Positions 1-43,297 of a DNA stretch of 43,297 nt are shown here, in pieces. The first letter of the stretch is position 1. Each line of letters begins with the position of its first letter. The notes below the pieces were generated by a model. That model was given only the letters and a program-made list of their open reading frames with translations. It searched no databases and had not been told where the DNA came from. The translations under genes were made by a program, and so were the position numbers. Source of the stretch: a virus; the IMG/VR virus record IMGVR_UViG_3300045988_110724, positions 1 through 43,297 of that record; one strand, given 5' to 3'.

Positions 1-77
1 GTCTCTGTAGCCAAAATTAGATTTCAACAGGAATACGGAAGCATTCCTGTCCATAGTTCCTTGAAGTGCTCCCTGTT
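1..77. repeat. Terminal direct repeat copy 1, identical to 43221-43297. It is an assembly overlap of a circular or circularly permuted genome.
   Basis: The same 77-nt string gtctctgtagccaaaattag...agtgctccctgtt was read at both contig ends. Confidence 0.95.
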
Positions 78-375
78 CGAGATTATCAGCCATCAGATTA
101 AGCATCTGTGAGAGAAAAATCGTTGTTTCATGATTAGGTCTCTCAGCAATCCATCTGTTAACAGTGTCTGGTGAAACTCCAAGGCAGACACATAGACCTC
201 TCAAGGTAGGAACTCTGTTGTTTTCATCGCAGTAAGTAAGATATTCATAACTTCTGTTCTTGATTGTATCAAAATCGTTGATTGTTGCCCTTTTCAATTT
301 GAGCATTTCTCTTGCACGTGCGACAGGCAGCTTGCTTTCGCCTATCTCATTGTAATCGAACTTCTTTTTTGCCAT
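1..375 (-). CDS. terS: Terminase small subunit (gp3-type DNA-packaging protein), N-terminal 125 codons. The ORF wraps the contig junction and continues at 43220.
   Basis: ATG at 375-373 with a GGAGG RBS at 383-387. Hand translation gives MAKKKFDYNEIGESKLPVARAREMLK...VPTLRGLCVCLGVSPDTVNRWI...ASVFLLKSNFGYRD. The HTH-like PTLxGLxxxLGVSxxTxxxW motif and the C-proximal FLLKxNFGxxD motif are typical of Firmicute phage TerS. Confidence 0.8.
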   Translation of the reverse strand, partial: MAKKKFDYNEIGESKLPVARAREMLKLKRATINDFDTIKNRSYEYLTYCDENNRVPTLRGLCVCLGVSPDTVNRWIAERPNHETTIFLSQMLNLMADNLEQGALQGTMDRNASVFLLKSNFGYRD

Positions 376-443
376 TTTTTTACCTCCAAAATATCGAATT
401 TCTAAAAAAGTCTTGACAAAATAAATGACCGATGGTCAGATTC

Positions 444-541
444 AACCCCCTACTTTCATGTGTCACATTCACACATCCCCCCCGGCAAAAAAATCGCACA
501 CACACAAGGGGGATGGGTGGTCAGTATATGCCTAGTGGGGG
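444..541. repeat. Nested inverted repeats built on C- and G-tracts upstream of terS
   Basis: CATCCCCC (474-481) pairs with GGGGGATG (508-515) across a 26-nt loop containing A7 and (CA)5. An outer C5 (446-450) pairs with G5 (537-541). The TGACC-GAT-GGTCA palindrome lies at 426-438. Confidence 0.6.
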
Positions 542-570
542 AAATATGTGGATTTTGACACCCTTTCCTA

Positions 571-804
571 TACCACCTATATAGAAATACATATATACAT
601 ATTTTTACTCTCTATACTATTTACTTATATATAAAATACCCCAATACCCCATAATATATAAAAAAGTAAGTATATATCAATGTTTTTTATATGTGAATTT
701 TTATGAATCACATAGGGTATTAGGGGTATGATGGTATCATTTTAAGGACTATTATTTAAATAGTGAAAAATACGCAAGTGGTGTTAGGGGTGTTTTAAAA
801 CACC
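571..804. repeat. Iteron clusters in inverted orientation flanking an AT-rich spacer; candidate replication origin
   Basis: ATACCAC at 571-577. ATACCCCA occurs twice in tandem at 636-651. About 60 bp of nearly pure A/T follows. Inverted copies are GGGTAT (715-720), GGGGTAT (723-729) and TGGTAT (732-737). A 16-bp perfect palindrome GGTGTTTTAAAACACC lies at 789-804. The region sits immediately 3' of the primase-helicase gene. Confidence 0.5.
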
Positions 805-821
805 ATAAGTTACGTACCGCC

Positions 822-4831: not shown

Positions 4832-4995
4832 TCTATTCCCTCCTGTTCTATAGGATATAGAGTCAGTATTGCATACTGTTCCTGTGCATACGCTCTATAT
4901 CCTATTATTCTGTATCTGCTTCTTAGTTCATCGATTACATCACTTAACTGTCTCATTGAATAGTAATCGACTTTCTTGTAAATGTACTCATTCAT
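4828..4995 (-). CDS. Hypothetical small protein (55 aa, below the ORF-track cutoff)
   Basis: Hand translation: MNEYIYKKVDYYSMRQLSDVIDELRSRYRIIGYRAYAQEQYAILTLYPIEQEGIE. ATGA overlaps with both neighbours indicate translational coupling. Confidence 0.45.
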   Translation of the reverse strand: MNEYIYKKVDYYSMRQLSDVIDELRSRYRIIGYRAYAQEQYAILTLYPIEQEGIE

Positions 4996-6516
4996 CATTG
5001 ACTGATATAATCATTTCTGAACATATTACCCATGATTGCTTCTAGCACATTTACAACGATAGAATTACCAGCTTGTTTATAAAGCTGTGTGTCTGAACAG
5101 ACTGTTCGAGCCTTGTTGAAGTCTTCATCATCAAACCCCATCAGACGCCAGCATTCTCTAGGTGTTAATTTTCTAATTCTGATGTTCTCCATGTTACTGT
5201 CCTCCGTAATTACTGCCTGTTGAGGACTGGTGCTGAGGGTGTTTGCCTTACCCTCACACACTCTTCCTCTTCTTGTATTGCTGTTTGGATAGGCAATATT
5301 AATGCTGTCTCCAATGGTTGCTTCTGCATACCCTTTCTTGGTTGCTTCTGCAATTCTGACAATAGGTCTATTATCCATTATCTTTGTCTCATGTCCTCCC
5401 GACGCTCTAGTGGTAATGGTAGGACACATTCCATCCATTCCATAGATGCGTCGAGATTGTTCATACTTAATGTTTGTGTATTCTGCTACAAGATTACATC
5501 GTTTCATTCCTTGCTACTCCTTTATCATCATAGGACTTTTATAATCACATGCAGTAAGTGTTCTAGCTGCACCATTAGGGTCATAGACAGTGTTACTCTG
5601 ATGCTGGGTGCCGTTCTCTGATTTCTTTATATACCCTACTTGCCTCACAATGCCATCTGTAGGCTTTTCAATCAGTTTAGATGACATTTCATCAGAGAGA
5701 TAATATCGTTCATCGACATTATCTTCCAATATACTGCTAACACCATTTTCTGTAATATGATTAGCGGTGTCTCTTGTTGGAATAGTTGTTACTGTGGTTG
5801 CAATCTTTGCTTCTTCTCTCTCTACAGGAGAGAATTTGAATCCGTAGCCTTTTTCCTCATTAATATGATTCTTCGTAAATCTGCGTTTGACGCATTCGCT
5901 TGAAAGGAAATACTTTTCATCGATATCTTCAACAGGTTCTAGTTTATCCATGAGTACTGTGTCTGATTCAATCGGTGAAGGGAATGTATAGCCTGTGTCA
6001 ATATCCTTTCGAATGCTGATGCAGAAGACTCTCTCTGTTCTGCGGGATGCCATAATCAACTGCGTTAAGTACTTGCCAATAATTGTTGTAGCCCAGTTCA
6101 TCGAGCCATCCAAGCCACCCTTCAAAATCTGGTCTGAATTTCTTTCCTACTAGATTTTTGACATTTTCCATGATCAGATATTTAGGGAGCGTATCATCTG
6201 ACTGGGCTTGAGCAAGAAGTCTCTGAACTTCATATAATAGTCCACTTCTTGTCTCGCCTTTAACAATTCCTTTTAGCTGCCCAGCGAGACTTATATCCTG
6301 GCATGGAAAGCCGTATGTCCATAGATCTGCATAATCTAGTTTTTCTACCTTTGAGATATCACCATAGTTTCTAGTTTCACCATAAATGCTGTTATATGAT
6401 TTGATTGCATACTTATCAATCTCGCTGATACCCACAATTTCATGTGGGATGCCGAGACGAATCAGAGCCTTTCTGAATGCTCCAATTCCGGCGAATAATT
6501 CATTAACTGTTAGCAT
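4995..6516 (-). pseudogene. DNA (cytosine-5)-methyltransferase with an unusually long, apparently triple-TRD variable region, interrupted by one frameshift and one in-frame TAG
   Basis: Motif I FAGIGAF, motif IV GFPCQDIS, motif VI ENV and motif VIII QNRE in ORF 5998-6516. The reading frame continues as RVFCISIRKD in ORF 5514-6125. Motif IX RKLTPRECWRLMGF and motif X YKQAGNSIVVNV lie in ORF 4995-5507. The frame break is at the (CT)4 run 6029-6036. An in-frame TAG lies at 5514-5516. Confidence 0.85.
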
Positions 6517-6527
6517 TAAATACCTCC

Positions 6528-7025
6528 TTATCTTCCAACGACTTTTGATAATAAGTCTTCATACAATTTCTTGAACATGTCTCTTTCTGCAGTAAGTTGG
6601 ATTTCTTTCTGCATTGAGGCTAATTCCGTATCATTATTAGGTTCTGCATCGTTAGCAGATACCACGGGTACATTCATGCCTAGAGAACGTCTTAATCCAC
6701 GCTCGATATTCTTCATCTCTTCATCACTTACAGTTCTCACATAAGTACCGATTCTATCCTTTTCAACAGTATGGATAGTTTCGCAGAGAGCAGTAGAAGG
6801 TGTTTTGCAGAACACATCTACATGAGTAGGCATGTCTCTCTTGATTTTTGTTGTAAGATAGACAACCTCAACATATTCGCTTCCTCTGTTTAGGTGGTCA
6901 TCTGATACGATTACACCAGGTCTTCCTGTAGTATCGTACGAATAAGAATCATTGAAATTCTTAGAATATGTGATATAGAAGATATCTCCTCTTTTAACTT
7001 CTCTTGTATTTAGACTATAGTTCAT
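6528..7025 (-). CDS. MazF/PemK-family (CcdB/MazF fold) toxin-like protein with a roughly 50-aa coiled C-terminal extension
   Basis: The segment RGDIFYITYS...GRPGVIVSDDHLNRGSEYVEVVYLTTKIK...LCETIHTVEKDRIGTYVRTVSDEEMKNIERGL follows the MazF/PemK pattern (GDI..v.f....RP.vVvS.......v.v.p.T......v.......Qi.tvdk.Rl....g.l). Confidence 0.7.
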   Translation of the reverse strand: MNYSLNTREVKRGDIFYITYSKNFNDSYSYDTTGRPGVIVSDDHLNRGSEYVEVVYLTTKIKRDMPTHVDVFCKTPSTALCETIHTVEKDRIGTYVRTVSDEEMKNIERGLRRSLGMNVPVVSANDAEPNNDTELASMQKEIQLTAERDMFKKLYEDLLSKVVGR

Positions 7026-16807: not shown

Positions 16808-17944
16808 ATGGCTAGAAAGACTAGATTTGGGCGCAGACCGAACAATACAGGAACTGTAGTTAAACTATCGGGCAAGAGAAGAACTCCGTTCTGTGCCCGC
16901 GTAATGAGCGATGAACGTGATATCATAACAGGCAAGAAGAAGCAGATATGTATTGGCACATTCGCTACTCGTGAAGAAGCATTGAATGCCTTATCTCTTT
17001 ACTCATTAAAGAAATCCAACAGTATAACGAATGAAGAAGCAAGAAACCTTGCCCCTAATCTGTTTGATGAAATTCAAAGAAAGACTCAAAAACGTGTACC
17101 GACTTTCAAAGAGATCTACGATATTCTTTACGAAGAAGAAATTTCAAAACTTTCAAAATCAGCACGTGACGGCTACAATTCATGGATTAAGAAGTTTAAA
17201 CTGTTACATGATAGAAGAATAGACACTATCTCTTTGATGGATCTCCAAGAAATTTTTGATAACAAGGAAGTTGGCAATAGCCTACACGTGCACATGAAGG
17301 TGCTATGTTCTAAGATTTTCAAGTACGCAGTGATCCATCAGTATATTCCGAGAGACTTCGATTATACATCATATATTAGAGTAGCCGAGTACAAAGAATC
17401 AGAAAAACATTATCCGTTTACTATCGAGGAAATAAGGAAAATAAAGGCACTTGACACCCCAGAAGCGCATATCATGCTTATCTACATCTATACAGGTTGT
17501 CGAGCCTCAGAATTAATTAAGATTGATAGAAGCAATATACATATAGACGAATATTGCAATGATGATGGCACTGAAATGCGTATAAGTTACATTGTCACTG
17601 GCTCAAAAACTGAGGCTGGAAAGAATCGAGTAATACCAATACATGACGATATCAAGCAGTATGTAATTGATGAATTGTTAAGAGATGATAAAAGGCTCAT
17701 TGATTCGTGCTATGGCAATATTGCAAACAAATCAGTACTGCCAAAAATTAATGATGCGCTTGGAGCCAAGCACACAATGCATGATACTAGAAAAACTTTC
17801 GCTTCTCTATGTCAGTTAAATAACGTCAATGTATATGTGCGAAAGAAAGTTCTAGGTCATAAAATGAATGATATCACTTTTGATGTGTATACTAACGAAA
17901 GTAAGAACGTGCTGTTTAATGAGATCAATAAGATAAAATTATAG
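16808..17944 (+). CDS. int: Tyrosine site-specific integrase
   Basis: 378 aa. The C-terminal catalytic region has CRASEL, HDTRKTFAS and LGHKMNDITFDVYTN (R..H-x-x-R..H..Y pattern). Confidence 0.9.
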   Translation: MARKTRFGRRPNNTGTVVKLSGKRRTPFCARVMSDERDIITGKKKQICIGTFATREEALNALSLYSLKKSNSITNEEARNLAPNLFDEIQRKTQKRVPTFKEIYDILYEEEISKLSKSARDGYNSWIKKFKLLHDRRIDTISLMDLQEIFDNKEVGNSLHVHMKVLCSKIFKYAVIHQYIPRDFDYTSYIRVAEYKESEKHYPFTIEEIRKIKALDTPEAHIMLIYIYTGCRASELIKIDRSNIHIDEYCNDDGTEMRISYIVTGSKTEAGKNRVIPIHDDIKQYVIDELLRDDKRLIDSCYGNIANKSVLPKINDALGAKHTMHDTRKTFASLCQLNNVNVYVRKKVLGHKMNDITFDVYTNESKNVLFNEINKIKL

Positions 17945-17973
17945 CGTTCCAATAGCGTTCTAATAGCGTTCCA
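17941..17973 (+). repeat. Three tandem 11-bp repeats ATAGCGTTC(C/T)A overlapping the int stop codon
   Basis: Read directly. Further ATAGCG copies lie at 17999-18004 (inverted) and 18292-18297. Confidence 0.9.
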
Positions 17974-18031
17974 ATTGTGATATACTTATTGTGTCAGCGC
18001 TATAAGTACTCTAAGTGAGCATAGCTGCGAA

Positions 18032-18057
18032 AGCCACTCCAAGGGGTGGCTTTTTTT
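18032..18057 (+). terminator. Intrinsic terminator of int
   Basis: AGCCACTCC-AA-GGGGTGGCT hairpin followed by T7. Confidence 0.7.
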
Positions 18058-18232
18058 GTTACTGATTTGTTACTAATTAAGCACTTTTAACTACTTTTCA
18101 CCACTAAAAAATGGCTTAAAATCAAGGTTTTTTGATTTAAATTTATTCATCATCGGTATAATAAAGTGGCTTAAATACAGGGCTTTTTGAGTGCTTGTTA
18201 CTAATTTGTTACTAGTTGAGTGCTTTTTAGTG
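18055..18232. repeat. attP-like repeat field: two roughly 33-bp direct repeats, each holding tandem TTGTTACTNA 10-mers, bracketing two TGGCTTAAA..GG.TTTTTGA boxes
   Basis: TTGTTACTGATTTGTTACTAATTAAGCACTTTT at about 18056-18088 versus TTGTTACTAATTTGTTACTAGTTGAGTGCTTTTT at about 18196-18229. Boxes lie at 18112-18135 and 18167-18190. Confidence 0.6.
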
Positions 18233-18274
18233 ATAATTTACAGTAAAAAAAGCGAAATATATAATACATAATCA

Positions 18275-23021: not shown

Positions 23022-24074
23022 TTATCCTTCTAACTGTGCACTGAATGTTGCCTTGTTCGTAATATCGCCTGCACCAATTGTATATGTTGCTCCTGTTGCT
23101 ACTGCAGTAGTTCCACCATCCTTGTACCACTTGATAGTTCCTAATGCAGATAACGCAGAACCAGTCACTTCAACTCCACCCTTGTAGACATGAGCAGTTA
23201 AAGTTGTAGCAATAGCTGTATTTTTGAAGATTGTTCCACCACTTGAAGTGATTGCCATTGTGATAGCATCTAAACCATCCTTCCCATTTGTGCCGTTTGT
23301 ACCTTTGTAGGAAACTGAATATGATTCAGTATGCTTACCATCAGAATAGTTTACAACAGTCTTTGTCCATAAGTACTGACCATTTGCCACGTCAGGCACT
23401 GTAGTACTCCAAGTTCCTGTTGGAGGAGTAGTGCCGCTTGTGCCAGCCTGGTATGTTACAGATGTTGAACTTACAGTAACGCTTGTACCGTTTGAACCAT
23501 TTGAGCCGTTTGTACCCTTGTAAGAAACTGAATATGCTTCTGTTGACTTGCCGTCAGAGTACTTGACTACTGTCTTAGTCCAAAGGAACTGCCCATTAGG
23601 TACATTAGGTACTGTTGCGCTCCATTCTCCTGTTGGCTTAGTAGTTCCACTTGCACCAACCTGGTATGTTACCGAAGTAGAACTTACAGTAACGCTTGTA
23701 CCATTCTGACCTGTCTGCCCCTTGAATGCGATTGAGTAACTGAATGTCTTGTTGATAGTGATATCACCGTCAACAACGATAGGAATAGTAATAGTACCAC
23801 TCTTAGTTAATGCAGATGTGGCAGTGATTGTGATTGTTGGCATTGGTGCTTTTCCATCAGATACCGCTGAAATTCCTGTAGGACATGTAATAGTTCCTAC
23901 GGTACATGGAACCTGTTCACTACCACATAATGCCATTACCTGTGTAGTAGTTGTCTGTGTGCCGTTTACAGAAGTAGTAGTACCTAAGAATGTATAGTTG
24001 TCATTAGTTAATACGACGGAATAACCATCGGTTAAGTCGATAACGTCAATCTGATTGACCGCTTTAATTGCCAT
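23022..24074 (-). CDS. Tail fibre-like protein with an internal 71-aa tandem duplication
   Basis: NGTSVTVSSTSVTYQ.G.SGTT.PTG.WS.TVP.V.NGQ.LWTKTVV.YSDGK.TE.YSVSYKGTNG occurs twice (aa 124-194 and 195-265). Confidence 0.65.
   Translation of the reverse strand: MAIKAVNQIDVIDLTDGYSVVLTNDNYTFLGTTTSVNGTQTTTTQVMALCGSEQVPCTVGTITCPTGISAVSDGKAPMPTITITATSALTKSGTITIPIVVDGDITINKTFSYSIAFKGQTGQNGTSVTVSSTSVTYQVGASGTTKPTGEWSATVPNVPNGQFLWTKTVVKYSDGKSTEAYSVSYKGTNGSNGSNGTSVTVSSTSVTYQAGTSGTTPPTGTWSTTVPDVANGQYLWTKTVVNYSDGKHTESYSVSYKGTNGTNGKDGLDAITMAITSSGGTIFKNTAIATTLTAHVYKGGVEVTGSALSALGTIKWYKDGGTTAVATGATYTIGAGDITNKATFSAQLEG
23280..23705. repeat. Two tandem 213-bp DNA repeats inside the CDS at 23022-24074
   Basis: For example, cttacagtaacgcttgtacc recurs with a 213-nt offset (about 23467 and about 23680). 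Confidence 0.8.
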
Positions 24075-35230: not shown

Positions 35231-35244
35231 TTTGGTTCTCCTTG

Positions 35245-35340
35245 CTCTTTAAAGTTTTTCTCTAACTATGTATGTGCTTTTTAAAGTTTTTCTCTAACTA
35301 TATATGTGCTCTTTAAAGTTTTTCTCTAACTCAAATATAC
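35245..35340. repeat. Three tandem 32-bp repeats in the portal-scaffold intergenic region
   Basis: Copies at 35245-35276, 35277-35308 and 35309-35340. The core is CT(C/T)TTTAAAGTTTTTCTCTAACT, and each copy contains the palindrome CTTTAAAG. Confidence 0.9.
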
Positions 35341-37127: not shown

Positions 37128-38786
37128 TTAGCATGGTCTTTTGAATATTTTTTTCATCGTTCCATAGCCTCCGTACAGTCTGTCACACAACTGCGACAAG
37201 CTGTCGGGAGCATCGTCGTGCTCATTCTTACCGAGTATCTTGAATGAGAACAGGTTATTCATGAACATTGAATATTCTTTTGAACGTTTGCCTGGCTCAA
37301 GGAAATAGAACTCTCTAATATCGGGCGCATTCTGAAATATACGCACCTCTTTTGCCTTTGTTGTCGGCGCACTGTGTGATGTTATGACACACTTGTAATC
37401 AAGTCGTGCAAGTTCCTTCTCTACATCTTCAGCGTACCCTTCACCACCATTATTCTTTTCGACATCGCAGTCCTGTACACCCCACGAAGCGATTTTCTTC
37501 GCTACTTCCGGCTGTGTTATTCTCTTATCGCCGTTATTGAACACAACGTCTGGTATATATACTGTTCCGTCTGCATACTGATAGGCTATCGGAGCACTCA
37601 CGTAGTCACCGCCGCCCCAGGCAGTATCTACTACGGTCAGTCTTCTGATTGGTTCCTCACTTGGCAGTATTCCGTTATAGAACTTCATATCTCCACCGTT
37701 GAACAATGCACCCTCACGTTCTACAGGCTCTCCCTGGTACTGTGCGAACCATGAAGCCATGTCGTTATTTCTCTCGAATGACGCCCTTCTCTGCTGATAG
37801 TATTCAGTAGAGAATCCAACACCATAGTCATAGTCGAAATTGGATTCATCATTCTCATTGAGCGCTGGCAGATTCACAATCTTGTACTTTCTTGACCTGT
37901 AGTTCGGATCATTCAATATAAGGTCCTGTCTTAGGCCGGCCGGGTCCACGAGCGACCATCTAGTACCTATCCATAACACCTTGCTCCCCTGTTTTGCACG
38001 TGTGATGAGGTTGTTATCTACTAATTTCCATGTCTTGTACATACGCTCCGGATTGAGTGCTTCTTCGATACCGCCAATCAAGTCATCACCGATAAGCACG
38101 CCGTTACAGTCACATGAACCGTTCAGTGTTCCATAGATAGAACGGCATGTAAGTGTTGGATATCTCTTCTTTCGCTCTAAATCCAATGTGTTTAATCTAG
38201 AGTTCTGATTCACTATGACGGATGCCGGAAAAATCTCACTGTATGTATAGGTCATATTGTCATTGATGATTTCATTTATACCTTCATAGAATGAATGCGT
38301 AATCGTGTCAGAGAAACTGCTGTACAGATTCGTCTTCTCTGAATTGATTCCCATGAGCCACGTAAGAAAGAACATGATTAATGTTGTCTTGCCTACTCGT
38401 GGCGGCATGGAAATAAACAGTTCCTGTAGATTTCCGTCATGGAGTGCCTGTAAGTCCTCTACAACGGTTCTCAATACCTTCATTCGTGGACGGTAGAACT
38501 GCTCATTGACAGGTCTGTTTATCTCGAGATAAAGCATGTAGTCCTCGAACGAATAATGCGCCGTAAACAGGAATGTCTTCTTATACATCTGATACATGTT
38601 GTATCGCTCCTCGATATCCTTGCTTCTGTTGCTGTTCGCTTCAGCAAGTCTGTGTCTTAAGTCCTTATTCAGATGCAGAAGCGTATCTTTATCGTTCGTA
38701 GCGTAGCAGTTCAATACAATGTCATACTTGGCAGTAAGACTGTCAGTACTCTTGTACAGTTTCACTTTCTTCTTATCTATTGCCAT
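37128..38786 (-). CDS. terL: Terminase large subunit
   Basis: 552 aa. Walker A MPPRVGKTT, Walker B-like VLIGDDL, and a C-terminal nuclease region with VDTAWGGGD. Confidence 0.9.
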   Translation of the reverse strand: MAIDKKKVKLYKSTDSLTAKYDIVLNCYATNDKDTLLHLNKDLRHRLAEANSNRSKDIEERYNMYQMYKKTFLFTAHYSFEDYMLYLEINRPVNEQFYRPRMKVLRTVVEDLQALHDGNLQELFISMPPRVGKTTLIMFFLTWLMGINSEKTNLYSSFSDTITHSFYEGINEIINDNMTYTYSEIFPASVIVNQNSRLNTLDLERKKRYPTLTCRSIYGTLNGSCDCNGVLIGDDLIGGIEEALNPERMYKTWKLVDNNLITRAKQGSKVLWIGTRWSLVDPAGLRQDLILNDPNYRSRKYKIVNLPALNENDESNFDYDYGVGFSTEYYQQRRASFERNNDMASWFAQYQGEPVEREGALFNGGDMKFYNGILPSEEPIRRLTVVDTAWGGGDYVSAPIAYQYADGTVYIPDVVFNNGDKRITQPEVAKKIASWGVQDCDVEKNNGGEGYAEDVEKELARLDYKCVITSHSAPTTKAKEVRIFQNAPDIREFYFLEPGKRSKEYSMFMNNLFSFKILGKNEHDDAPDSLSQLCDRLYGGYGTMKKIFKRPC

Positions 38787-38813
38787 ATTTCCTCCTTATC
38801 TCTTTCATTGCAC

Positions 38814-38850
38814 AAAAAAAGAGCCTACACCATATGTGGTGCATGGCTCT
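38814..38850 (-). terminator. Intrinsic terminator after the recombinase gene, immediately upstream of the terL RBS
   Basis: The minus strand reads GAGCC..CACCAcataTGGTG..GGCTC followed by T7 (plus-strand A-run 38814-38820). Confidence 0.6.
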
Positions 38851-39412
38851 AGGCTCTATGCTTATAATACGTTGCTCTGCTCACATTGCACTGCTTGCAG
38901 GCTTCTGTTATTGATACACCCTGTCTGACCAGGTTATCTACCTCTTCGATTGAGACAGTCGGTCTTCCGATGCTCTTTCCTCTCTTGCGTGCGGCTTTGA
39001 GACCTTCGACGGTTCTCTCCACCATCATGTCATGCTCCTGCTGGGCAAGTGATGAAAGCACCTCGAGGATTATGTTGTTTATCATCTCGATGATCCATTC
39101 CTGTCCGTCCAGTTCAATCATGGTCGTAGGCATATTAAGTATTCTTATTATAACACCCTTTTCCTGGAAAAACCTAATCTCGTCCTTTATGAGCTGTTTA
39201 TTTCTTCCAAGTCTGTCGAGTGCGTGGATGTATAGTTCATCCCCTTTTTTTATCGTTTCCTTCAACTTGCAGTAGTTCGGTCTGTCGATTCTTGTGCCCG
39301 TGTACTTGTCACTGTAAATATAGTCTACATTGTATGAGCGCAGGCTGTCTATCTGCCTGTCGAGAGACTGCTTTCCTGTACTCACTCGTGCGTAGCCGTA
39401 TTTCATCGCCAT
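38849..39412 (-). CDS. Small serine recombinase (resolvase/invertase family) with a C-terminal HTH
   Basis: An N-terminal YGYARVSTGKQSLDRQ catalytic Ser motif, LDRLGRN, and a C-terminal HTH GVSITEACKQCNVSRATYYKH. 187 aa. Confidence 0.9.
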   Translation of the reverse strand: MAMKYGYARVSTGKQSLDRQIDSLRSYNVDYIYSDKYTGTRIDRPNYCKLKETIKKGDELYIHALDRLGRNKQLIKDEIRFFQEKGVIIRILNMPTTMIELDGQEWIIEMINNIILEVLSSLAQQEHDMMVERTVEGLKAARKRGKSIGRPTVSIEEVDNLVRQGVSITEACKQCNVSRATYYKHRA

Positions 39413-39672
39413 TTCCCTCTGTTATCTTCTCTATCGGGCACTTCATCTAGTACGACTGTTCTTTCTGCTCTGTCATTACCGCCTCGTGGTCTGATGATGA
39501 TGTCGTAGTCAAGTTCGTTGCATATGTTGATTAGGATGCTGACCTTTGTATCACTCACTCTAGATATATTGCCAATACTGGCACTACTCTTATATCCTAG
39601 TCTGTCTGCAAGTCTAGCAAATGAGCTGTTATTGTCATCAATCATCTTTCTTAAGCATTCTTTTAAGTTCAT
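39403..39672 (-). CDS. XRE-family HTH regulator, translationally coupled to the recombinase
   Basis: ATG 39672 lies 8 nt after AGGAGG. The HTH is SSFARLADRLGYKSSASIGNISR. Its stop overlaps the recombinase start. Confidence 0.65.
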   Translation of the reverse strand: MNLKECLRKMIDDNNSSFARLADRLGYKSSASIGNISRVSDTKVSILINICNELDYDIIIRPRGGNDRAERTVVLDEVPDREDNRGKWR

Positions 39673-39692
39673 AATATCTACCTCCTGTGCAT

Positions 39693-39734
39693 AGTATATC
39701 ATTACTCTTGGTATGTGTCAACACTATTTAGTGT
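39693..39734 (-). promoter_or_regulatory. Promoter of the HTH-recombinase operon (TTGACA-17-TATACT) with an adjacent 14-bp palindrome
   Basis: The -10 box maps to plus-strand 39693-39698 and the -35 box to 39716-39721. The palindrome ACACTATTTAGTGT lies at 39721-39734. Confidence 0.6.
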
Positions 39735-39867
39735 ATGTCCTTAAAAATAGGCCGTCGGTGGTAGCGGGGTTGAGCAGTATTGGTAAAACCATCAAAAAAA
39801 TGGGGAGGGCGGGGCTATATATAAAAACGTTGTCTAAAAAACGAACGATTAAAAGACATTATAAAAT

Positions 39868-39948
39868 AATCATTATTTAATGATTTTTATTATTGACATT
39901 AGTCATTATCTAATGTATTATACAGGTGTAGTCATTAATAAGTGACTA
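39868..39948 (+). promoter_or_regulatory. Promoter of the amidoligase operon (TTGACA-17-TATTAT) embedded in operator-like palindromes
   Basis: The -35 box is at 39893-39898 and the -10 box at 39916-39921. AATCATTA-TT-TAATGATT lies at 39868-39885. TAGTCATTA occurs at 39900-39908 and again within the palindrome TAGTCATTAATAAGTGACTA at 39929-39948. Confidence 0.6.
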
Positions 39949-40177
39949 AAGATAGTTCATTGACAATTGAATAACGTGAAAATCTCAAAAGGAAAAGAGA
40001 AACGTATATATACATATTGCTATGTATAGTACTGAAAAAGAAAAGAGATTAATCCACAACGTACCAATCTATATATAGATGTACATATTAGAATTAATCT
40101 CTTTATATTAGTGCTATATGTTTAGCCGACAAATAGCAACATGATTATATCATATGTTTTTCTTAAGGTAAAACATT

Positions 40178-41572
40178 ATGGATAATAATTTAGTAAAGTA
40201 TTATGACCACAACGAATTTTCATTTATTTCTATGGAGAAATTAGAAGAATTAAAAGATGAATATTATATTGAATATTCTACCTTAGAAGATTGCTATATC
40301 AATAAAGATACCAGCGATTATGGTTATTGTGATAATGATCTTTTAACTAATGATACTATAGAAAATGGAGATTATATCTATTGTGAAGATACAGAAGATT
40401 ATCAACCAACCGATTACACTGTACATCTAGAAGATACAGACGAATATGTAACGGAGAATTATGAATACCAATATTGTAGTGAATGTGGATCATATTTTAG
40501 TCGTGACTATGAAATGCATTGTCGCGGTGACAATTATTATTGTGATGATTGTTGGGAGGACATGGAACCTGTTATTTATGATTATCATTGTTATCGCGAT
40601 GGTTATTACCCACGTTCTCTAGCACGTGAAAGTCCATTGTTTATGGGGTTTGAATTAGAAGTTGACAACGTACGCGGTGATTGTGAAAGTTTAGCTGCAA
40701 GCGTATTAGATGGTGACAGTACAGACGTATTACATTGTGAATATGATTGTACAGTGGCCTTTGAATTTATTAGTCAACCATGTACACTAGCATATCACAA
40801 GAACCAACATTATAACGATTGGTTCTTTAATGAACTAGATGGCAATTGTGAAAGTCACGACGCTGGTACTTGTGGTTTACACGTACACGTTAACAAGTCG
40901 TTTTTTGATGATCGCAGTTATAACAGATTGAAAACAATTCTTTTCTTCTTTAAAGAGGAATTATTCCAATTTTCACGCCGCCAGCGTTGGGATTATGGTT
41001 ATTCTGACTTTGGAGAAATAATCCGTAAAAACAATGTAACAATGCATAAAGCAAAAAATACTAAACACTATGGCCATTCTACATGGTTCAATGAAAATAA
41101 TAGTTCTACTTACGAATTTAGATTTTTCCGTGGAACTCTTAAGTATGAAACATTTATGGCAAGTCTTGAACTAGTCCACAATATTTGTATGGCTGCAATG
41201 AGTAATAAAGATGTTATCACATGGGATTCACTTCTAGATGGTGATTATTGTAGAGAATACAGCGAATCACGTGAAATCTATTGCGATAGTGAATTGAATT
41301 TAGGTGAGTTAGAAAAGAAAGAAAACGAATTAATGCAAGCAATCAAAAAAGGTTTAGAGGAAAATGTTTTTATCAATTTAAATCATGTTTGTGTTGGTGA
41401 GATTGTAGGAGATACAATCGTTTTCTATTGTCTCTATAACAATAACGGAGAACTACACAAACGCCGTCAAAACTATATTGATCTATCGGAGTTTGAAACC
41501 TTTGAAACACACGGCTATTACTACTTATGTAATAGAAAAGAACTTTCTAACTTGTTAGGGGGTGAATTCTAA
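40178..41572 (+). CDS. Glutamine-synthetase-like amidoligase (Amidoligase_2 family) with a Tyr/Asp/Glu/Cys-rich N-terminal extension containing a zinc ribbon
   Basis: Catalytic-domain motifs FMGFELEV, YDCTVAFEFISQP, GTCGLHVHVNK and TYEFRFFRGTL. The N-terminal 150 aa are low-complexity and include CSEC-x10-HC-x6-CDDC. Confidence 0.8.
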   Translation: MDNNLVKYYDHNEFSFISMEKLEELKDEYYIEYSTLEDCYINKDTSDYGYCDNDLLTNDTIENGDYIYCEDTEDYQPTDYTVHLEDTDEYVTENYEYQYCSECGSYFSRDYEMHCRGDNYYCDDCWEDMEPVIYDYHCYRDGYYPRSLARESPLFMGFELEVDNVRGDCESLAASVLDGDSTDVLHCEYDCTVAFEFISQPCTLAYHKNQHYNDWFFNELDGNCESHDAGTCGLHVHVNKSFFDDRSYNRLKTILFFFKEELFQFSRRQRWDYGYSDFGEIIRKNNVTMHKAKNTKHYGHSTWFNENNSSTYEFRFFRGTLKYETFMASLELVHNICMAAMSNKDVITWDSLLDGDYCREYSESREIYCDSELNLGELEKKENELMQAIKKGLEENVFINLNHVCVGEIVGDTIVFYCLYNNNGELHKRRQNYIDLSEFETFETHGYYYLCNRKELSNLLGGEF

Positions 41573-42438
41573 TGTGCATTATTGCAATCAAGCCAGCTCA
41601 TCATAAAATGATAGATGAGACAACGCTAGAAACAATGTTTAACACCAACCCCGACGGCGCGGGTTATATGTACGCTTATAACAATAGAGTACATATCAAA
41701 AAAGGTTTCATGACATTAAAGGAATTGTTAAATAGCCTTGATAATCTGAAAAAGAAAATCAATATTGAAGAAATACCCTTGATCTTACATTTTCGTATCT
41801 CTACTAGTGGGAAAACAGATGGCGCCACTTGCCATCCTTTTCCTGTCACTAGTGATTTAAGCGCACTAAGAAAAACCCATGTTATAACTAACTTAGGTAT
41901 GGCGCATAATGGTATTATTGGTGATTTTGAAGAAAAGAATAGTATCTATAGCGATACACAATTATTTGTGAATAAGTGTGTATCATATCTCTATGATATA
42001 AATCCTAAATTCTTACACGATGATAGAACGAAAAAGCTGCTAGAACCTATTATAAATGGTTCACGCCTGGCGTTTCTAGACAGTCACGGCAATATATACC
42101 GTTATGGTGACTGGATCGAAAACGATGGTATCTATTATAGTAATGAGGGCTATATCCCATGGCAAACACGCTATTATCATATTAATGATACTTATTATAG
42201 TAAGTACTATTATGGTGATGATTATTATTACTATGGTGATGAGGACCAGGAACTAAAAATTTTAGAGAAATTAGAAGCCTATGAAGAAATCACAAACAGT
42301 GAAGATATCTGTTATATTAGAACTATGTATGATATAGTAGAAGAAACGGAAAACACGGAAATTTATGACGTGGTCGGTATGTTTGTAAAGGTTGATCCTA
42401 TCGCAAGCCGTGCTATTCGTATCGAGGGGGTTGATTAA
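41572..42438 (+). CDS. Class-II (Ntn-type) glutamine amidotransferase-like protein with a poly-Tyr/Asp segment and a C-terminal extension
   Basis: Cys2 nucleophile (MCIIAIK), HFRISTSGKTDGATCHPF, MAHNGIIGDF and YSDTQLF. Its start overlaps the upstream stop (TAATG). The tail is YYHINDTYYSKYYYGDDYYYYGDED. Confidence 0.8.
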   Translation: MCIIAIKPAHHKMIDETTLETMFNTNPDGAGYMYAYNNRVHIKKGFMTLKELLNSLDNLKKKINIEEIPLILHFRISTSGKTDGATCHPFPVTSDLSALRKTHVITNLGMAHNGIIGDFEEKNSIYSDTQLFVNKCVSYLYDINPKFLHDDRTKKLLEPIINGSRLAFLDSHGNIYRYGDWIENDGIYYSNEGYIPWQTRYYHINDTYYSKYYYGDDYYYYGDEDQELKILEKLEAYEEITNSEDICYIRTMYDIVEETENTEIYDVVGMFVKVDPIASRAIRIEGVD

Positions 42439-42588
42439 TTGTTTAGATTATTGATTTATTTATGTTTTTTTCCGTTGTGGTTGATATGGTGGTTTATTAA
42501 AATTGTAGCGTGGTTCATGCTGCAGCTTGAAATATTCTTACTTAGTTTCAATGGTAGTAGTGCAATAAAAAGAAGAAGAAGATGGTAA
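42439..42588 (+). CDS. 49-aa hydrophobic peptide with an RRRRW tail (TTG start)
   Basis: Hand translation (M)FRLLIYLCFFPLWLIWWFIKIVAWFMLQLEIFLLSFNGSSAIKRRRRW. GAGGGGG lies 8 nt upstream, and the operon terminator overlaps its 3' end. Confidence 0.45.
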   Translation: MFRLLIYLCFFPLWLIWWFIKIVAWFMLQLEIFLLSFNGSSAIKRRRRW

Positions 42589-42602
42589 CATCTTCTTTTT
42601 TG
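42571..42602 (+). terminator. Intrinsic terminator of the amidoligase operon
   Basis: AAGAAGATG-gtaa-CATCTTCTT followed by TTTTTG. Confidence 0.75.
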
Positions 42603-43085
42603 TCGTTCATAAATAATTATAGTTCTATGAATTAATTATAGTTCTATAAACGTTTAAGGATCACAAGTGATACGCTATTATAAAGCGTTCTAAGAGACTT
42701 TTATATAATGGTGATATAAATATACCATAACCACATAAGCAACGCTTAAAATTGAAATATAGGCTTTCTATACAATGCAGCTTATACATACCAATTGTAG
42801 AGATATTCCACAGGGCTTTAAATAGCCCTTTTAAGCGTGTTTTATACTATCATGATATAATTATCATCTTTCATATAAATGTGCCTTAGAATTGAAATAT
42901 AGCCCATTTAAGGCTATAGGTGCATGTAATCTATACTAATACAAGAACGAAAGATTTTACATAGAACCACGAAAAAATCCATACTCAAGAAAATAGGAAA
43001 AATACGGCAAAATTTCAGATGTCATAATGCGCCGTCAAAATTTTCGCACGCATGGTGACAGAATTTTCACGTGCATATGTAAAAA

Positions 43086-43114
43086 GGTGAGCAAAAAAAC
43101 GCTCACCTTTTTTT
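43086..43114. terminator. Bidirectional intrinsic terminator directly after terS
   Basis: A5, then GGTGAGC-aaaaaaac-GCTCACC, then T7. Confidence 0.8.
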
Positions 43115-43220
43115 ATTTCTCTTCAAAATCTGCATCTATAACGACCGCAGAAATTTCCTTTTCAATCTGTTCAATCGATTTGCTTTCAGAAACCATATGA
43201 TGGACCTTCACATCCTGGTT
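43113..43220 (-). CDS. terS: Terminase small subunit, C-terminal 35 codons plus stop. Together with 1-375 the protein totals 160 aa.
   Basis: In-frame continuation NQDVKVHHMVSESKSIEQIEKEISAVVIDADFEEK, with TAA at 43115-43113, followed immediately by a hairpin terminator. Confidence 0.8.
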   Translation of the reverse strand, partial: NQDVKVHHMVSESKSIEQIEKEISAVVIDADFEEK

Positions 43221-43297
43221 GTCTCTGTAGCCAAAATTAGATTTCAACAGGAATACGGAAGCATTCCTGTCCATAGTTCCTTGAAGTGCTCCCTGTT
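43221..43297. repeat. Terminal direct repeat copy 2 (duplicate of 1-77)
   Basis: Exact match to nt 1-77. Confidence 0.95.

What the first reader, a model, noticed from the sequence alone, without database searches (positions are those of the whole stretch)
38787..43112. terS and terL are split by a 4.3-kb island carrying a serine recombinase and at least two terminators
The small and large terminase genes are normally adjacent and co-transcribed. Here terS (wrapping the contig ends, stop at 43113) is followed by:
- a bidirectional terminator (43086-43114);
- about 480 bp of non-coding repeats;
- the convergent amidoligase operon;
- an independently promoted XRE-HTH + 187-aa resolvase/invertase operon, which ends in a terminator (38814-38850) only about 20 nt before the terL RBS.

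This suggests either recombinase-mediated insertion of a cassette into the packaging operon, or a site-specific inversion or resolution function. It also implies that terL and the late genes need antitermination, read-through or an unrecognised promoter.
Basis: partly seen in the sequence, partly recalled or inferred. Interest (0 to 1): 0.65.

Follow-up and report, generated by a model that had tools for sequence, protein, structure and literature searches.

The report
Conserved recombinase module between terminase genes
The DNA separating this gut phage's two packaging genes is not a recent insertion but an old, widely shared layout in phages of gut Clostridia: a slot for swappable accessory genes next to a conserved small DNA recombinase whose role is still unknown.

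Summary
terS (window 375..1 joined to 43220..43113) and terL (37128-38786) are 4.3 kb apart. Between them lie three intrinsic-terminator-like hairpins and two divergent sigma-70-type transcription units. One encodes amidoligase, GATase and a 49-aa membrane peptide. The other encodes an XRE-like HTH protein and a 187-aa serine recombinase.

The insertion reading fails its own test. All 27 close relatives (TerL 92-98%) carry the same order, and I found no island-free variant. Among 49 GTDB Clostridia prophages chosen on TerL alone, terS was found upstream in 40 and touches terL in one (median gap 3.8 kb). Twenty-four have a same-strand serine recombinase just upstream of terL.

Only the cargo looks foreign: it is low in GC, fast-evolving, replaced by defence-like genes elsewhere, and inverted in one lineage. 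The HTH protein and recombinase have core-like GC.

About 160 related contig stretches show no inversion and there are no long inverted repeats, so invertase activity on phage DNA is unsupported. A tyrosine integrase handles integration.

My best guess, at low confidence, is a resolvase-type function near pac that manages genome topology. HTH recognition-helix alleles track operator alleles at the cargo promoter. terL has no promoter of its own and must be reached by read-through.

The parts
1..375 (-). 5' part of terS (start ATG at 375; continues across the circular junction)
   Evidence: 160-aa ORF, Pfam GP3_package 54.9 bits, phrog_606 terminase small subunit
43113..43297 (-). 3' part of terS (stop at 43113-43115; 43221-43297 duplicates 1-77)
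43081..43112 (.). Bidirectional intrinsic-terminator-like hairpin (12-bp perfect stem, A-run and T-run flanks) ending terS
   Evidence: I22; both arms invariant in 20 relatives
42601..43080 (.). Variable non-coding spacer; only short, chance-level repeats
   Evidence: 46% invariant columns; no real tandem array; no Rfam hit
42573..42600 (+). Hairpin plus T-run that ends the cargo operon
   Evidence: AAGAAGATG-GTAA-CATCTTCTT followed by TTTTTG
42439..42588 (+). orf49: small hydrophobic peptide with a basic C-terminal tail; third gene of the cargo operon
   Evidence: intact 47-49-aa ORF in all 20 relatives, in two protein alleles
41572..42438 (+). Class-II (Ntn, Cys2) glutamine-amidotransferase-like protein, 288 aa
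   Evidence: phrog_25883; homologue carries GATase_4, weak; N-terminus MCIIA
40178..41572 (+). Amidoligase_2-like protein with Cys-rich N-terminus, 464 aa
   Evidence: PF12224, 20.2 bits, just below the 22 cut-off; phrog_16683 E=1.9e-32; phrog_2443 amidoligase
39928..40177 (+). Highly conserved, strongly structured 5' leader of the cargo operon
   Evidence: mean pairwise distance 0.042; dG -59.8 kcal/mol, z -5.35
39848..39951 (+). Cargo promoter (TTGACA-17-TATTAT, 39893-39921) within a hypervariable operator region carrying palindromes (for example AATCATTAttTAATGATT, 39868-39885)
   Evidence: mean pairwise distance 0.38; alleles track the HTH recognition helix
39733..39847 (.). Single-copy GC-rich non-coding block directly upstream of the hth-rec promoter; its 39748-39774 core is near-invariant while its 39775-39815 part exists in two alleles. 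Candidate recombinase (res-like) or activator site
   Evidence: unique in the genome; kept in L034; no bacterial copy
39693..39734 (-). hth-rec promoter (TTGACA-17-TGnTATACT) with the palindrome ACACTAttTAGTGT abutting the -35
39403..39672 (-). XRE-like HTH regulator, 89 aa (the first-listed ATG at 39702 lies inside the promoter)
   Evidence: (HTH_3/HTH_26 weak in homologues)
38849..39412 (-). Small serine recombinase, 185-187 aa, overlapping the hth stop codon
   Evidence: catalytic S11, R9, D66-R67, R70 invariant; gamma-delta, Tn3, Sin, Gin all about 1e-22
38814..38850 (-). Intrinsic-terminator-like hairpin plus T7-8 between rec and terL
37128..38799 (-). terL with its RBS (AAGGAGG 38793-38799); first gene of the late operon

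Best explanation
The 4.3-kb stretch is an ancestral, self-contained early or moron-type module. It sits in a gap between terS and terL that is characteristic of a large clade of temperate, headful-packaging siphophages of gut and rumen Clostridia.

**Part A: cargo.** This is an acquired, exchangeable operon of amidoligase, class-II GATase and a 49-aa membrane peptide. It has its own sigma-70 promoter, a long structured leader and its own terminator. The divergently encoded XRE-like HTH protein regulates it (inferred).

**Part B: recombinase.** This is a core-like, catalytically intact small serine recombinase, translationally coupled to the HTH gene.

**Insulation.** Terminators separate the module from terS on one side and from terL on the other.

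**Most likely role of the recombinase (inferred).** It is neither the integrase nor an invertase of phage DNA; a tyrosine integrase elsewhere handles integration. It most likely works in resolvase mode on a single-copy site beside its own promoter. There it would manage the topology or multimer state of the pac-packaged genome through resolution or cyclisation. Cre/lox does this next to pac in P1, and the same is presumed for the small serine recombinase next to terS in phiCD38-2.

**Late transcription (inferred).** Transcription from terL onwards must come from read-through of the rec terminator, much like lambda PR'/tR', or from a promoter type the scan cannot see.

**Confidence by part.**
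- Architecture, ancestry and the cargo/core split: about 0.85.
- HTH protein as cargo regulator: about 0.6.
- Read-through requirement: about 0.6.
- Resolvase/topology role: about 0.3.

The single confidence figure of 0.45 is for the whole package.
For: **Ancestry.**
- 27 IMG/VR relatives (TerL 92-98%) are collinear, in the order terS, gat, amid, hth, rec, terL.
- Recombinase homologues at 52-73% identity sit in the same place in phages whose TerL is 38-92% identical.
- Of 49 GTDB loci picked on TerL alone, 24 have a same-strand serine recombinase within 3 kb upstream of terL. terS was detected upstream in 40 of them and is adjacent to terL in only 1, with a median gap of 3.8 kb.
- Minimal terS-rec-terL forms exist in L166 and L169.

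**Cargo versus core.**
- GC is 0.30-0.35 for the cargo and intergenic regions, against 0.40 for hth, 0.45 for rec and 0.44 for terL. The island is the lowest-GC 4.3-kb window in the genome.
- In L034 the flanks are 90-92% identical but amid and gat only 54%.
- Other lineages carry FtsK-like ATPases, an RNaseH-RnlA toxin or an Mrr nuclease in the same slot.
- The cassette is inverted in L043.

**HTH protein as regulator.** Seven operator alleles match the recognition-helix alleles (adjusted Rand index 0.71, permutation p about 5e-5). The same index is 0.14 against rec and 0.21 against the HTH C-terminus, and the block lying between operator and gene does not co-vary.

**Recombinase is active.** The catalytic residues are invariant across 20 homologues down to 47% identity.

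**Not the integrase.** A tyrosine integrase lies at 16808-17944. Prophage contigs end beside it and are collinear through rec.

**Candidate site.** A single-copy block abuts the hth-rec promoter, between divergent promoters as res does in Tn3. Its core is near-invariant.

**Precedent.** phiCD38-2, a headful-packaging plasmid prophage, has a small serine recombinase directly upstream of terS.

**Read-through.**
Against: - No recombination site has been identified. The conserved block shows no clear res-like subsites and is not recognisable beyond close relatives.
- This phage integrates, has no ParA/ParB that I saw, and encodes its own Sak4-like annealase and exonuclease. The need for a resolvase or cyclase is therefore not obvious.
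- Classical small serine resolvases need supercoiled circular substrates, which fits dimer resolution better than cyclisation of linear DNA.
- The candidate site lies about 3.4 kb from terS. Cyclisation would need a terminal redundancy of 8% or more.
- Different serine-recombinase subfamilies occupy the same slot, and rec identity is uncoupled from TerL identity below 90% (rho 0.08). That also fits a mobile or repeatedly recruited gene.
- The operator/HTH association could partly reflect linkage. A distance-based correlation was weak (rho 0.15), and the AlphaFold model of the HTH protein is poor (pLDDT 47).
- No antiterminator or late sigma factor was found in the ORFs I scanned.
Confidence: 0.45

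Rival explanations
1. One reading: the recombinase recently inserted the 4.3-kb island as a cassette into an intact terS-terL operon.
For: - terS and terL are adjacent in most phages (general knowledge) and in two distant relatives, L147 and L182.
- The island is the lowest-GC stretch of the genome.
- A recombinase gene sits at one edge.
Against: - There is no island-free variant among the 27 close relatives.
- The same split occurs in nearly all relatives down to about 35% TerL identity.
- rec and hth have core-like GC.
- No direct repeats flank the island.
Confidence: 0.04
2. The recombinase is a Gin/Hin-type DNA invertase. It would flip either the roughly 3-kb cargo cassette next to it or a promoter segment, giving phase-variable expression.
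For: - The best PHROG hit is 'DNA invertase'.
- The layout of a 3-kb segment beside the recombinase gene resembles the Mu G segment with gin.
- The amidoligase-GATase cassette lies in the opposite orientation in L043.
- Cargo is usually antisense to the packaging genes.
Against: - The two intergenic regions share no inverted-repeat pair above chance. The only invariant blocks in the terS-side spacer are the terminator arms.
- None of 27 loci around the island, and none of 132 loci covering the rest of the genome, show an inverted segment.
- L043 is a compact, fixed co-directional arrangement in a distant lineage.
Confidence: 0.12
3. The serine recombinase gene is itself selfish or mobile and has repeatedly targeted the terS|terL junction. 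Alternatively, it is the anchor of an integron-like platform that captures and exchanges cargo cassettes in the adjacent slot.
For: - At least three kinds of serine recombinase occupy the same position in phages with similar TerL: about 57%-identical, about 30-40%-identical, and forms of about 250-290 aa.
- Recombinases about 40% identical sit before unrelated TerL families.
- Minimal terS-rec-terL forms exist.
- Cargo beside the recombinase is extremely diverse: 95 clusters among 124 ORFs.
- In L034, rec is 73% identical while both flanks are about 90%.
Against: - No repeated att-like sequences bound the cargo in the window or consistently in 15 other loci.
- There are no island-free close relatives.
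- Ordinary homologous recombination between mosaic phages explains allele replacement equally well.
- About half of the clade has the gap and its cargo without any recombinase.
Confidence: 0.2
4. The recombinase is a second integration/excision enzyme, like the small resolvase-like integrase of Ralstonia phage phiRSM. Alternatively, it acts on host DNA, for example by flipping host invertible loci.
For: - Small serine recombinases can integrate phages (phiRSM, from my own knowledge). Many Ralstonia phage records match.
- A unique GC-rich block beside the gene could be an att core.
Against: - Prophage-derived contigs end at the tyrosine integrase and run straight through rec and the block.
- An exact-match scan of 241 million metagenome records found the block core only in phage relatives, plus two unrelated high-GC chance hits.
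- GTDB prophages inside contigs of about 100-3,300 kb keep terS, rec and terL contiguous.
Confidence: 0.05
5. The recombinase has been domesticated as a DNA-binding regulator or insulator of late transcription and no longer recombines DNA.
For: - It sits exactly at the early/late boundary, co-transcribed with a regulator, directly before a conserved terminator and terL.
- No recombination product was detected in any assembly.
Against: The nucleophile serine and the arginine and aspartate residues of the active site are invariant over deep divergence, which argues for retained catalysis.
Confidence: 0.07

Closest known systems
Cre/loxP of phage P1, located a few kb from pac (from my own knowledge; the P1 genome paper is reference 9 of PMC8026635)
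   Same: - A site-specific recombinase gene lies a few kb downstream of the packaging start in a headful-packaging temperate phage.
- It is expressed independently of the late genes.
- Its proposed roles are dimer resolution and cyclisation of terminally redundant DNA.
   Different: - Cre is a tyrosine recombinase with a known 34-bp site and no topological constraint.
- P1 is a plasmid prophage.
- Here the enzyme is a serine recombinase, the site is unknown and the phage integrates.
Small serine recombinase gp55 of Clostridioides phage phiCD38-2 and relatives (phiCD111, CDSH1)
   Same: - A small resolvase/invertase-type recombinase sits at the early/late boundary beside the packaging genes of a headful-packaging siphophage of a Clostridia host (Table 1 of PMC8026635).
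   Different: - gp55 lies upstream of terS, not between terS and terL.
- It does not appear among the top 40 matches to the window's recombinase, all of which are below 37% identity. It is 52% identical to the L095-type recombinase.
- phiCD38-2 is an extrachromosomal prophage with ParA/ParB.
- As far as I know, its function has not been tested either.
Tn3 / gamma-delta resolvase with res; Sin and Bin3 resolvases
   Same: - Same fold and catalytic residues (PDB hits about 1e-22, aligned end to end).
- The gene lies next to an intergenic region with divergent promoters and a single-copy conserved block.
   Different: - No recognisable res subsites.
- Regulation seems to be delegated to a separate HTH protein.
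- The setting is a phage packaging module rather than a transposon or plasmid.
Gin (Mu), Cin (P1), Hin, Pin DNA invertases
   Same: - Same family (33-35% identity; Gin structures score 1.5e-21).
- Phage-borne.
- A roughly 3-kb segment lies beside the gene.
   Different: - No flanking inverted repeats, and no inversion in about 160 related contig stretches.
- Not next to tail-fibre genes.
Lambda PR'-tR'-Q late antitermination (from my own knowledge)
   Same: A constitutive-looking promoter is followed by a strong terminator immediately before the first late gene, and the late operon has no promoter of its own.
   Different: - Here two genes (0.85 kb) lie between the promoter and the terminator.
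- No Q-like protein or late sigma factor was identified.
Accessory/defence-gene hotspots at fixed positions in phage genomes, such as the P2/P4 hotspots and lambdoid morons (from my own knowledge)
   Same: - A fixed slot with conserved flanks.
- Cargo that is low in GC, independently transcribed, terminator-bounded and highly variable, including nuclease, toxin and ATPase genes.
   Different: - The slot splits terS from terL.
- In about half of the clade it is accompanied by a serine recombinase.

Membership tests
Small serine recombinase (resolvase/invertase family, PF00239) | N-terminal catalytic domain with the Ser nucleophile in a YxRVST..Q motif and conserved Arg/Asp residues | tested here: met
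   PF00239 scores 96.4 bits against a cut-off of 23.3. S11, R9, Q15, D66, R67 and R70 are invariant in 20 homologues. The protein aligns end to end with gamma-delta resolvase.
Small serine recombinase (resolvase/invertase family, PF00239) | Short C-terminal HTH DNA-binding domain; total length about 180-210 aa | tested here: met
   Length is 185-187 aa. HTH_7 scores 22.6 bits, just under the 23.8 cut-off, and is recorded for close homologues. The alignment to the gamma-delta HTH reaches residue 184.
DNA invertase subfamily (Hin/Gin/Cin/Pin) | Two inverted recombination sites flanking an invertible segment adjacent to the gene | tested here: not met
   No inverted-repeat pair above chance, and none conserved. 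No inverted segment in 27 plus 132 related loci.
DNA invertase subfamily (Hin/Gin/Cin/Pin) | Fis-dependent enhancer within or near the gene | not testable with these tools
   No sequence model is available, and Clostridia hosts lack a characterised Fis equivalent.
Resolvase with res site (Tn3, gamma-delta, Sin, beta) | Single res site with several recombinase-binding subsites adjacent to the gene, usually overlapping its promoter | tested here: inconclusive
   A unique 115-bp block (39733-39847) with a near-invariant core abuts the promoter. No dyad subsites could be recognised, and the block is not detectable in distant relatives.
Resolvase with res site (Tn3, gamma-delta, Sin, beta) | Resolution of direct repeats of the site in vivo or in vitro | not testable with these tools
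   Needs a recombination assay.
Recently inserted genomic island | Island-free close relatives (empty site) | tested here: not met
   None among 27 relatives at 92-98% TerL identity. Adjacent terS-terL occurs only in L147 and L182, at 39-48% identity.
Recently inserted genomic island | Flanking direct repeats or att sites | tested here: not met
Recently inserted genomic island | Deviant base composition | tested here: inconclusive
   Met for the cargo part (GC 0.30-0.35 against a genome value of 0.387) but not for hth and rec (0.40 and 0.45).
Small terminase, P22 gp3 type | Match to GP3_package above the curated cut-off | tested here: met
   54.9 bits against a cut-off of 29.4; phrog_606.
Large terminase | ATPase plus RNaseH-like nuclease domains | tested here: met
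   phrog_38 E=1.8e-64; PF22530 scores 30.9 bits against a cut-off of 27. The portal gene follows.
Amidoligase_2 plus class-II GATase phage pair | Amidoligase_2 domain and an adjacent Ntn-type amidotransferase with N-terminal Cys | tested here: inconclusive
   PF12224 scores 20.2 bits, below the 22 cut-off. phrog_16683 is E=1.9e-32 but unnamed, and phrog_2443 'amidoligase' is E=7.9e-5. The partner starts MCIIA, and a homologue has a weak GATase_4 hit.
Intrinsic terminator | GC-rich hairpin followed by a T-tract on the transcribed strand | tested here: met
   Termination efficiency was not tested.
Known anti-phage defence systems (PADLOC) | Match to any PADLOC model | tested here: not met
   No hit for rec, hth, amid, gat or orf49.

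The most novel reading that the evidence does not exclude
The pac-proximal gap between terS and terL is a dedicated accessory-gene platform of gut Clostridia phages, and the serine recombinase beside terL is its engine. The recombinase would either capture and exchange cargo cassettes, as a serine-recombinase analogue of an integron. Or it would recombine a pac-proximal site to cyclise or multimerise headful genomes. In both cases the first DNA packaged, and in first-headful particles the first injected, would carry early-acting counter-defence cargo.
Probability: 0.15. Interest if true: 0.75.

Novelty: new variant of a known kind. Interest (0 to 1): 0.45.

Why it matters
It changes how this class of gut and rumen phage genome should be annotated. 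A terS several kb from terL is normal here, not a mis-call or an assembly error, and the gap is where accessory, defence-like genes should be looked for.

It also singles out a conserved, catalytically intact small serine recombinase with no counterpart above 37% identity in the cultured phages of the collection searched. Its fixed position before terL in many lineages points to an unrecognised step linking site-specific recombination with packaging or late expression.

If the recombinase proves to act on a short single site, it would be a compact new tool enzyme. It would also be a handle on how these abundant but uncultured phages handle their genome topology.

Tried and rejected
1. **Invertible segment.** I searched for inverted repeats in the island and genome-wide and compared orientation in 27 plus 132 related loci. 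The only minus-strand hit was a palindrome at 40024-40104 aligning to itself. The 12-nt inverted repeat at 39569/39775 around the hth promoter is at chance level.
2. **Repeats bounding the cargo.** In 15 diverse loci nothing was consistent. L036 has 54-81-bp direct repeats flanking rec, but the window has no counterpart.
3. **A shared motif.** GTAGCG..GGG appeared to link the window and L036, but it is not general.
4. **att-like copy of the GC-rich block.** The metagenome scan returned only phage relatives and two unrelated high-GC hits.
5. **Alternative neighbourhoods of the identical recombinase protein.** None found.
6. **L037 against L036.** The break in mid-terL has no homology to the window beyond the break, so I treat it as a probable chimeric assembly.
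7. **Distance-based covariation of operator and hth.** This was weak (rho 0.15). The categorical allele comparison was the informative test.
8. **AlphaFold model of the HTH protein.** It was too poor to use (pLDDT 47).
9. **Database screens.** Rfam, tRNA and PADLOC scans found nothing.
10. **Late sigma factor or antiterminator.** None found in the ORFs between 3.2 and 11.2 kb that I scanned.
11. **Literature.** Four searches found no description of this layout.
12. **Bacillus cereus homologue.** Its genomic context was uninformative.

Full report
**What the window is.** The contig ends share a 77-bp direct overlap, so this is a circular 43,220-bp phage genome.
- Almost all genes are on the minus strand.
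- It encodes a tyrosine integrase (16808-17944), a Sak4-type annealase and exonuclease, a primase-helicase, a complete siphovirus late region and an endolysin.
- Related IMG/VR contigs end just beside the integrase. They are therefore excised prophage pieces, and the window is the circular form.

**Checking the observation.** It is confirmed.
- terS is a 160-aa ORF that crosses the junction (375..1 joined to 43220..43113). It matches P22 gp3-type small terminases above Pfam's cut-off.
- terL (37128-38786) and portal follow 4.3 kb further on.
That ORF is a 49-aa hydrophobic peptide, intact in all 20 relatives.
- On the minus strand the gap holds an XRE-like HTH gene and a small serine recombinase.
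- The HTH gene almost certainly starts at 39672 (89 aa). The upstream ATG lies inside the -10 box of its own promoter.
- Three terminator-like hairpins are present.
  - The one after terS (43081-43112) has invariant arms in 20 relatives.
  - The one between rec and terL folds at -27.5 kcal/mol (z -4.5). Its hairpin and 7-8 T tract are present in every close relative, with the inner stem partly degraded in L021 and L022.
  - A third ends the cargo operon.
- The '480 bp of repeats' is the weakest part. It has only short, chance-level repeats and no tandem array, and it is the least conserved stretch.

**Is it an inserted island?** No.
- A scan of IMG/VR with TerL returned 27 relatives at 92-98% identity. 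Every one that reaches far enough has the order terS, GATase, amidoligase, HTH, recombinase, terL. All are collinear with the window over about 20 kb.
- Homologues of the recombinase at 73, 59, 57, 55 and 52% identity sit in the same place, immediately upstream of terL with terS several kb further up. Their TerL proteins are 92, 57, 56, 55 and 38% identical.
- To avoid selecting on the recombinase, I scanned one genome per GTDB species with a TerL alignment. Hosts are gut and rumen Clostridia (Oscillospiraceae, Acutalibacteraceae, Ruminococcus, Lachnospiraceae, Christensenella and others).
  - Forty-nine loci had at least 3 kb upstream of terL.
  - Twenty-four of them have a same-strand serine recombinase within 3 kb of terL.
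  - terS was found upstream in 40 and touches terL in only one. The median gap is 3.8 kb.
- The cultured Clostridium phage Maintenon (TerL 42%) also has a 2.6-kb gap.
- Minimal forms with only the recombinase between terS and terL exist in L166 and L169.
- The split is therefore a clade character, and the recombinase next to terL is its most constant occupant.

**What is foreign and what is core.**
- The island as a whole is the lowest-GC 4.3-kb window of the genome. This comes from the cargo and the two intergenic regions (0.30-0.35).
- hth (0.40) and rec (0.45) match terL (0.44).
- Among close relatives the cargo evolves faster than its flanks. In L034, terS, hth and terL are 89-92% identical while the amidoligase and GATase are 54%.
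- In L043 the cassette lies in the opposite orientation.
- In other lineages the slot holds unrelated genes, mostly antisense. These include FtsK/SpoIIIE-like ATPases (recurrent), an RNaseH-RnlA-type toxin, an Mrr nuclease and a ParA-like ATPase. In all there are 95 sequence clusters among 124 ORFs.
- This is the signature of an accessory-gene hotspot.

**The HTH protein.**
- The 100 bp around the cargo promoter (39848-39951) are hypervariable, with seven alleles in 20 genomes. The promoter hexamers, the 250-nt leader and the block upstream stay conserved.
- The variable residues of the HTH protein cluster at positions 28-40, where a recognition helix is expected.
- Each operator allele goes with one helix allele in 19 of 20 genomes. 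The adjusted Rand index is 0.71 (permutation p about 5e-5). It is 0.14 against recombinase alleles and 0.21 against the C-terminal half of the same protein.
- I infer that the HTH protein is the specific regulator of the cargo promoter rather than a recombination factor.
- Linkage could contribute to the association, and the structure model was too poor to confirm helix positions.

**The recombinase.**
- It is a complete small serine recombinase. The nucleophile serine and the active-site arginines and aspartate are invariant over deep divergence.
- It is equally similar to gamma-delta/Tn3 resolvase, Sin/Bin3 and Gin, so sequence does not tell resolvase from invertase.
- It is not the integrase. 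Prophage contigs end at the tyrosine integrase and run straight through the recombinase region.
- I found no evidence for inversion: no inverted-repeat pair above chance, none conserved, and no inverted segment in 27 loci around the island or 132 loci covering the rest of the genome.
- The best candidate site is a single-copy, GC-rich 115-bp block (39733-39847) directly upstream of the hth-rec promoter. It lies between the two divergent promoters, as res does in Tn3.
  - Its 39748-39774 core is near-invariant, while the 39775-39815 part exists in two alleles.
  - It is kept in L034 but not recognisable further out.
  - It has no copy in bacterial contexts.
- A single site per genome is what a resolution or cyclisation system needs.
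- Precedents are Cre/lox beside pac in P1 (my own knowledge) and the small serine recombinase directly upstream of terS in phiCD38-2, a headful-packaging plasmid prophage.
- On that basis I favour a resolvase-type, genome-topology role, at only about 0.3.
- Different recombinase subfamilies occupy the same slot, and rec and TerL identities are uncoupled below 90%. This keeps a mobile-gene or cassette-platform reading alive, at about 0.2.

**Late transcription.**
- In many close relatives the T-tract of the rec terminator is only about 9 nt from the terL ribosome-binding site, so there is no room for a promoter.
- The late region down to the endolysin has fewer sigma-70-like sites than shuffled sequence, and none better than 9 of 12 on the coding strand.
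- The nearest strong promoter on that strand is the hth promoter.
- The simplest model resembles lambda. A constitutive promoter makes a short hth-rec transcript that stops at the terminator, and a lytic-phase factor allows read-through into terL.
- I found no antiterminator or late sigma factor in the ORFs I scanned, so this step is inferred.
- terS sits at the end of the replication-side transcription unit and has its own terminator. The two terminase genes are probably transcribed separately.

**Comparison with known systems and novelty.**
- The parts are familiar: a small serine recombinase, an XRE-like regulator, an amidoligase/GATase phage pair and intrinsic terminators.
- What I could not find described is the conserved layout. 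That layout is terS, then a variable antisense cargo slot, then HTH and serine recombinase, then terL, across a large clade of uncultured gut Clostridia phages.
- No cultured phage in the collection has a recombinase more than 37% identical.
- I class it as a new variant of a known kind.

**Verdict.** The insertion reading is wrong, the inversion reading is unsupported, and the read-through inference is reasonable.

Noticed in passing
window 1-77 and 43221-43297: An exact 77-bp terminal direct repeat shows the contig is a circular assembly of 43,220 bp. Genes that touch the ends, terS among them, must be read across the junction.
   Followed up: yes
window 39928-40177 (+): The 250-nt leader of the amidoligase operon is about 96% conserved among 20 relatives. 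It folds into one long hairpin (dG -59.8 kcal/mol, z -5.35) that includes a perfect 12-bp inverted repeat (40042-40053 with 40093-40104). There is no Rfam match. It may be a regulatory RNA element.
   Followed up: partly
window 39848-39951 and 39555-39590: The operator region of the cargo promoter exists in seven alleles among 20 near-identical phages. Each allele pairs with a matching allele of the HTH recognition helix, an immunity-like specificity system for a cargo operon.
   Followed up: yes
window 42439-42588 (+): An unannotated 47-49-aa hydrophobic peptide with a basic tail (KRRRRW) is intact in all 20 relatives, in two protein alleles. It directly follows the GATase stop codon.
   Followed up: partly
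window 4995-6516 (-): A Dcm-type cytosine-5 DNA methyltransferase appears split over two or three overlapping ORFs (4995-5507, 5514-6125, 5998-6516). This could be a frameshifted gene, a sequencing error or programmed frameshifting.
   Followed up: no
window 6528-7025 (-): A MazF/PemK-type toxin ORF (Pfam E=2e-17) lies in the early region. No antitoxin partner was looked for.
   Followed up: no
window 17941-18250: 11-bp tandem repeats (ATAGCGTTCYA, three copies) start at the integrase stop codon, and a 56-nt direct repeat lies 139 bp apart. These are probably attP arm-type sites. Prophage-derived relatives end in this region.
   Followed up: partly
window 35243-35338: Three tandem copies of a 32-bp unit lie in the short gap just downstream of the portal gene, before the scaffold-like gene.
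   Followed up: no
window 23284-23705 (-): A 209-nt tandem duplication (79% identical) lies inside the tail-fibre/host-specificity gene 23022-24074.
   Followed up: no
window 376-821: The 446-bp gap between the primase gene and terS contains several copies of a TAGGGGT(A/G)T-like motif in both orientations, plus C- and G-rich runs. It is a candidate pac-related or late-regulatory region and was not analysed.
   Followed up: no
L036 7893-7973 and 8710-8790 (same in L037): In a relative with a 57%-identical recombinase, 54-81-bp direct repeats (98% and 89% identical) flank the recombinase gene. They carry several copies of a TATCCCTTTTGT / GGATAGCGAAGGGGAG motif. They could be duplicated regulatory or recombination sites.
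   Followed up: partly
L037 5945 versus L036 10254: Two contigs carrying the identical recombinase are 99.5% identical up to the middle of terL and then diverge completely. L037 continues with unrelated minus-strand genes. This is probably an assembly chimera, but a real rearrangement was not excluded.
   Followed up: partly
L043 6033-8410: In one lineage (rec 55%, TerL 55%) the amidoligase-GATase cassette lies on the same strand as terS and terL, inverted relative to the window and all other relatives.
   Followed up: partly
L132 6133-7338, L139 4422-5207, L028 4043-5047 and about 20 other loci: FtsK/SpoIIIE-like ATPases are the most recurrent cargo in the terS-terL slot of related prophages, usually antisense and just downstream of terS. 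L126 carries an RNaseH-RnlA-type toxin and an Mrr nuclease in the same slot.
   Followed up: partly
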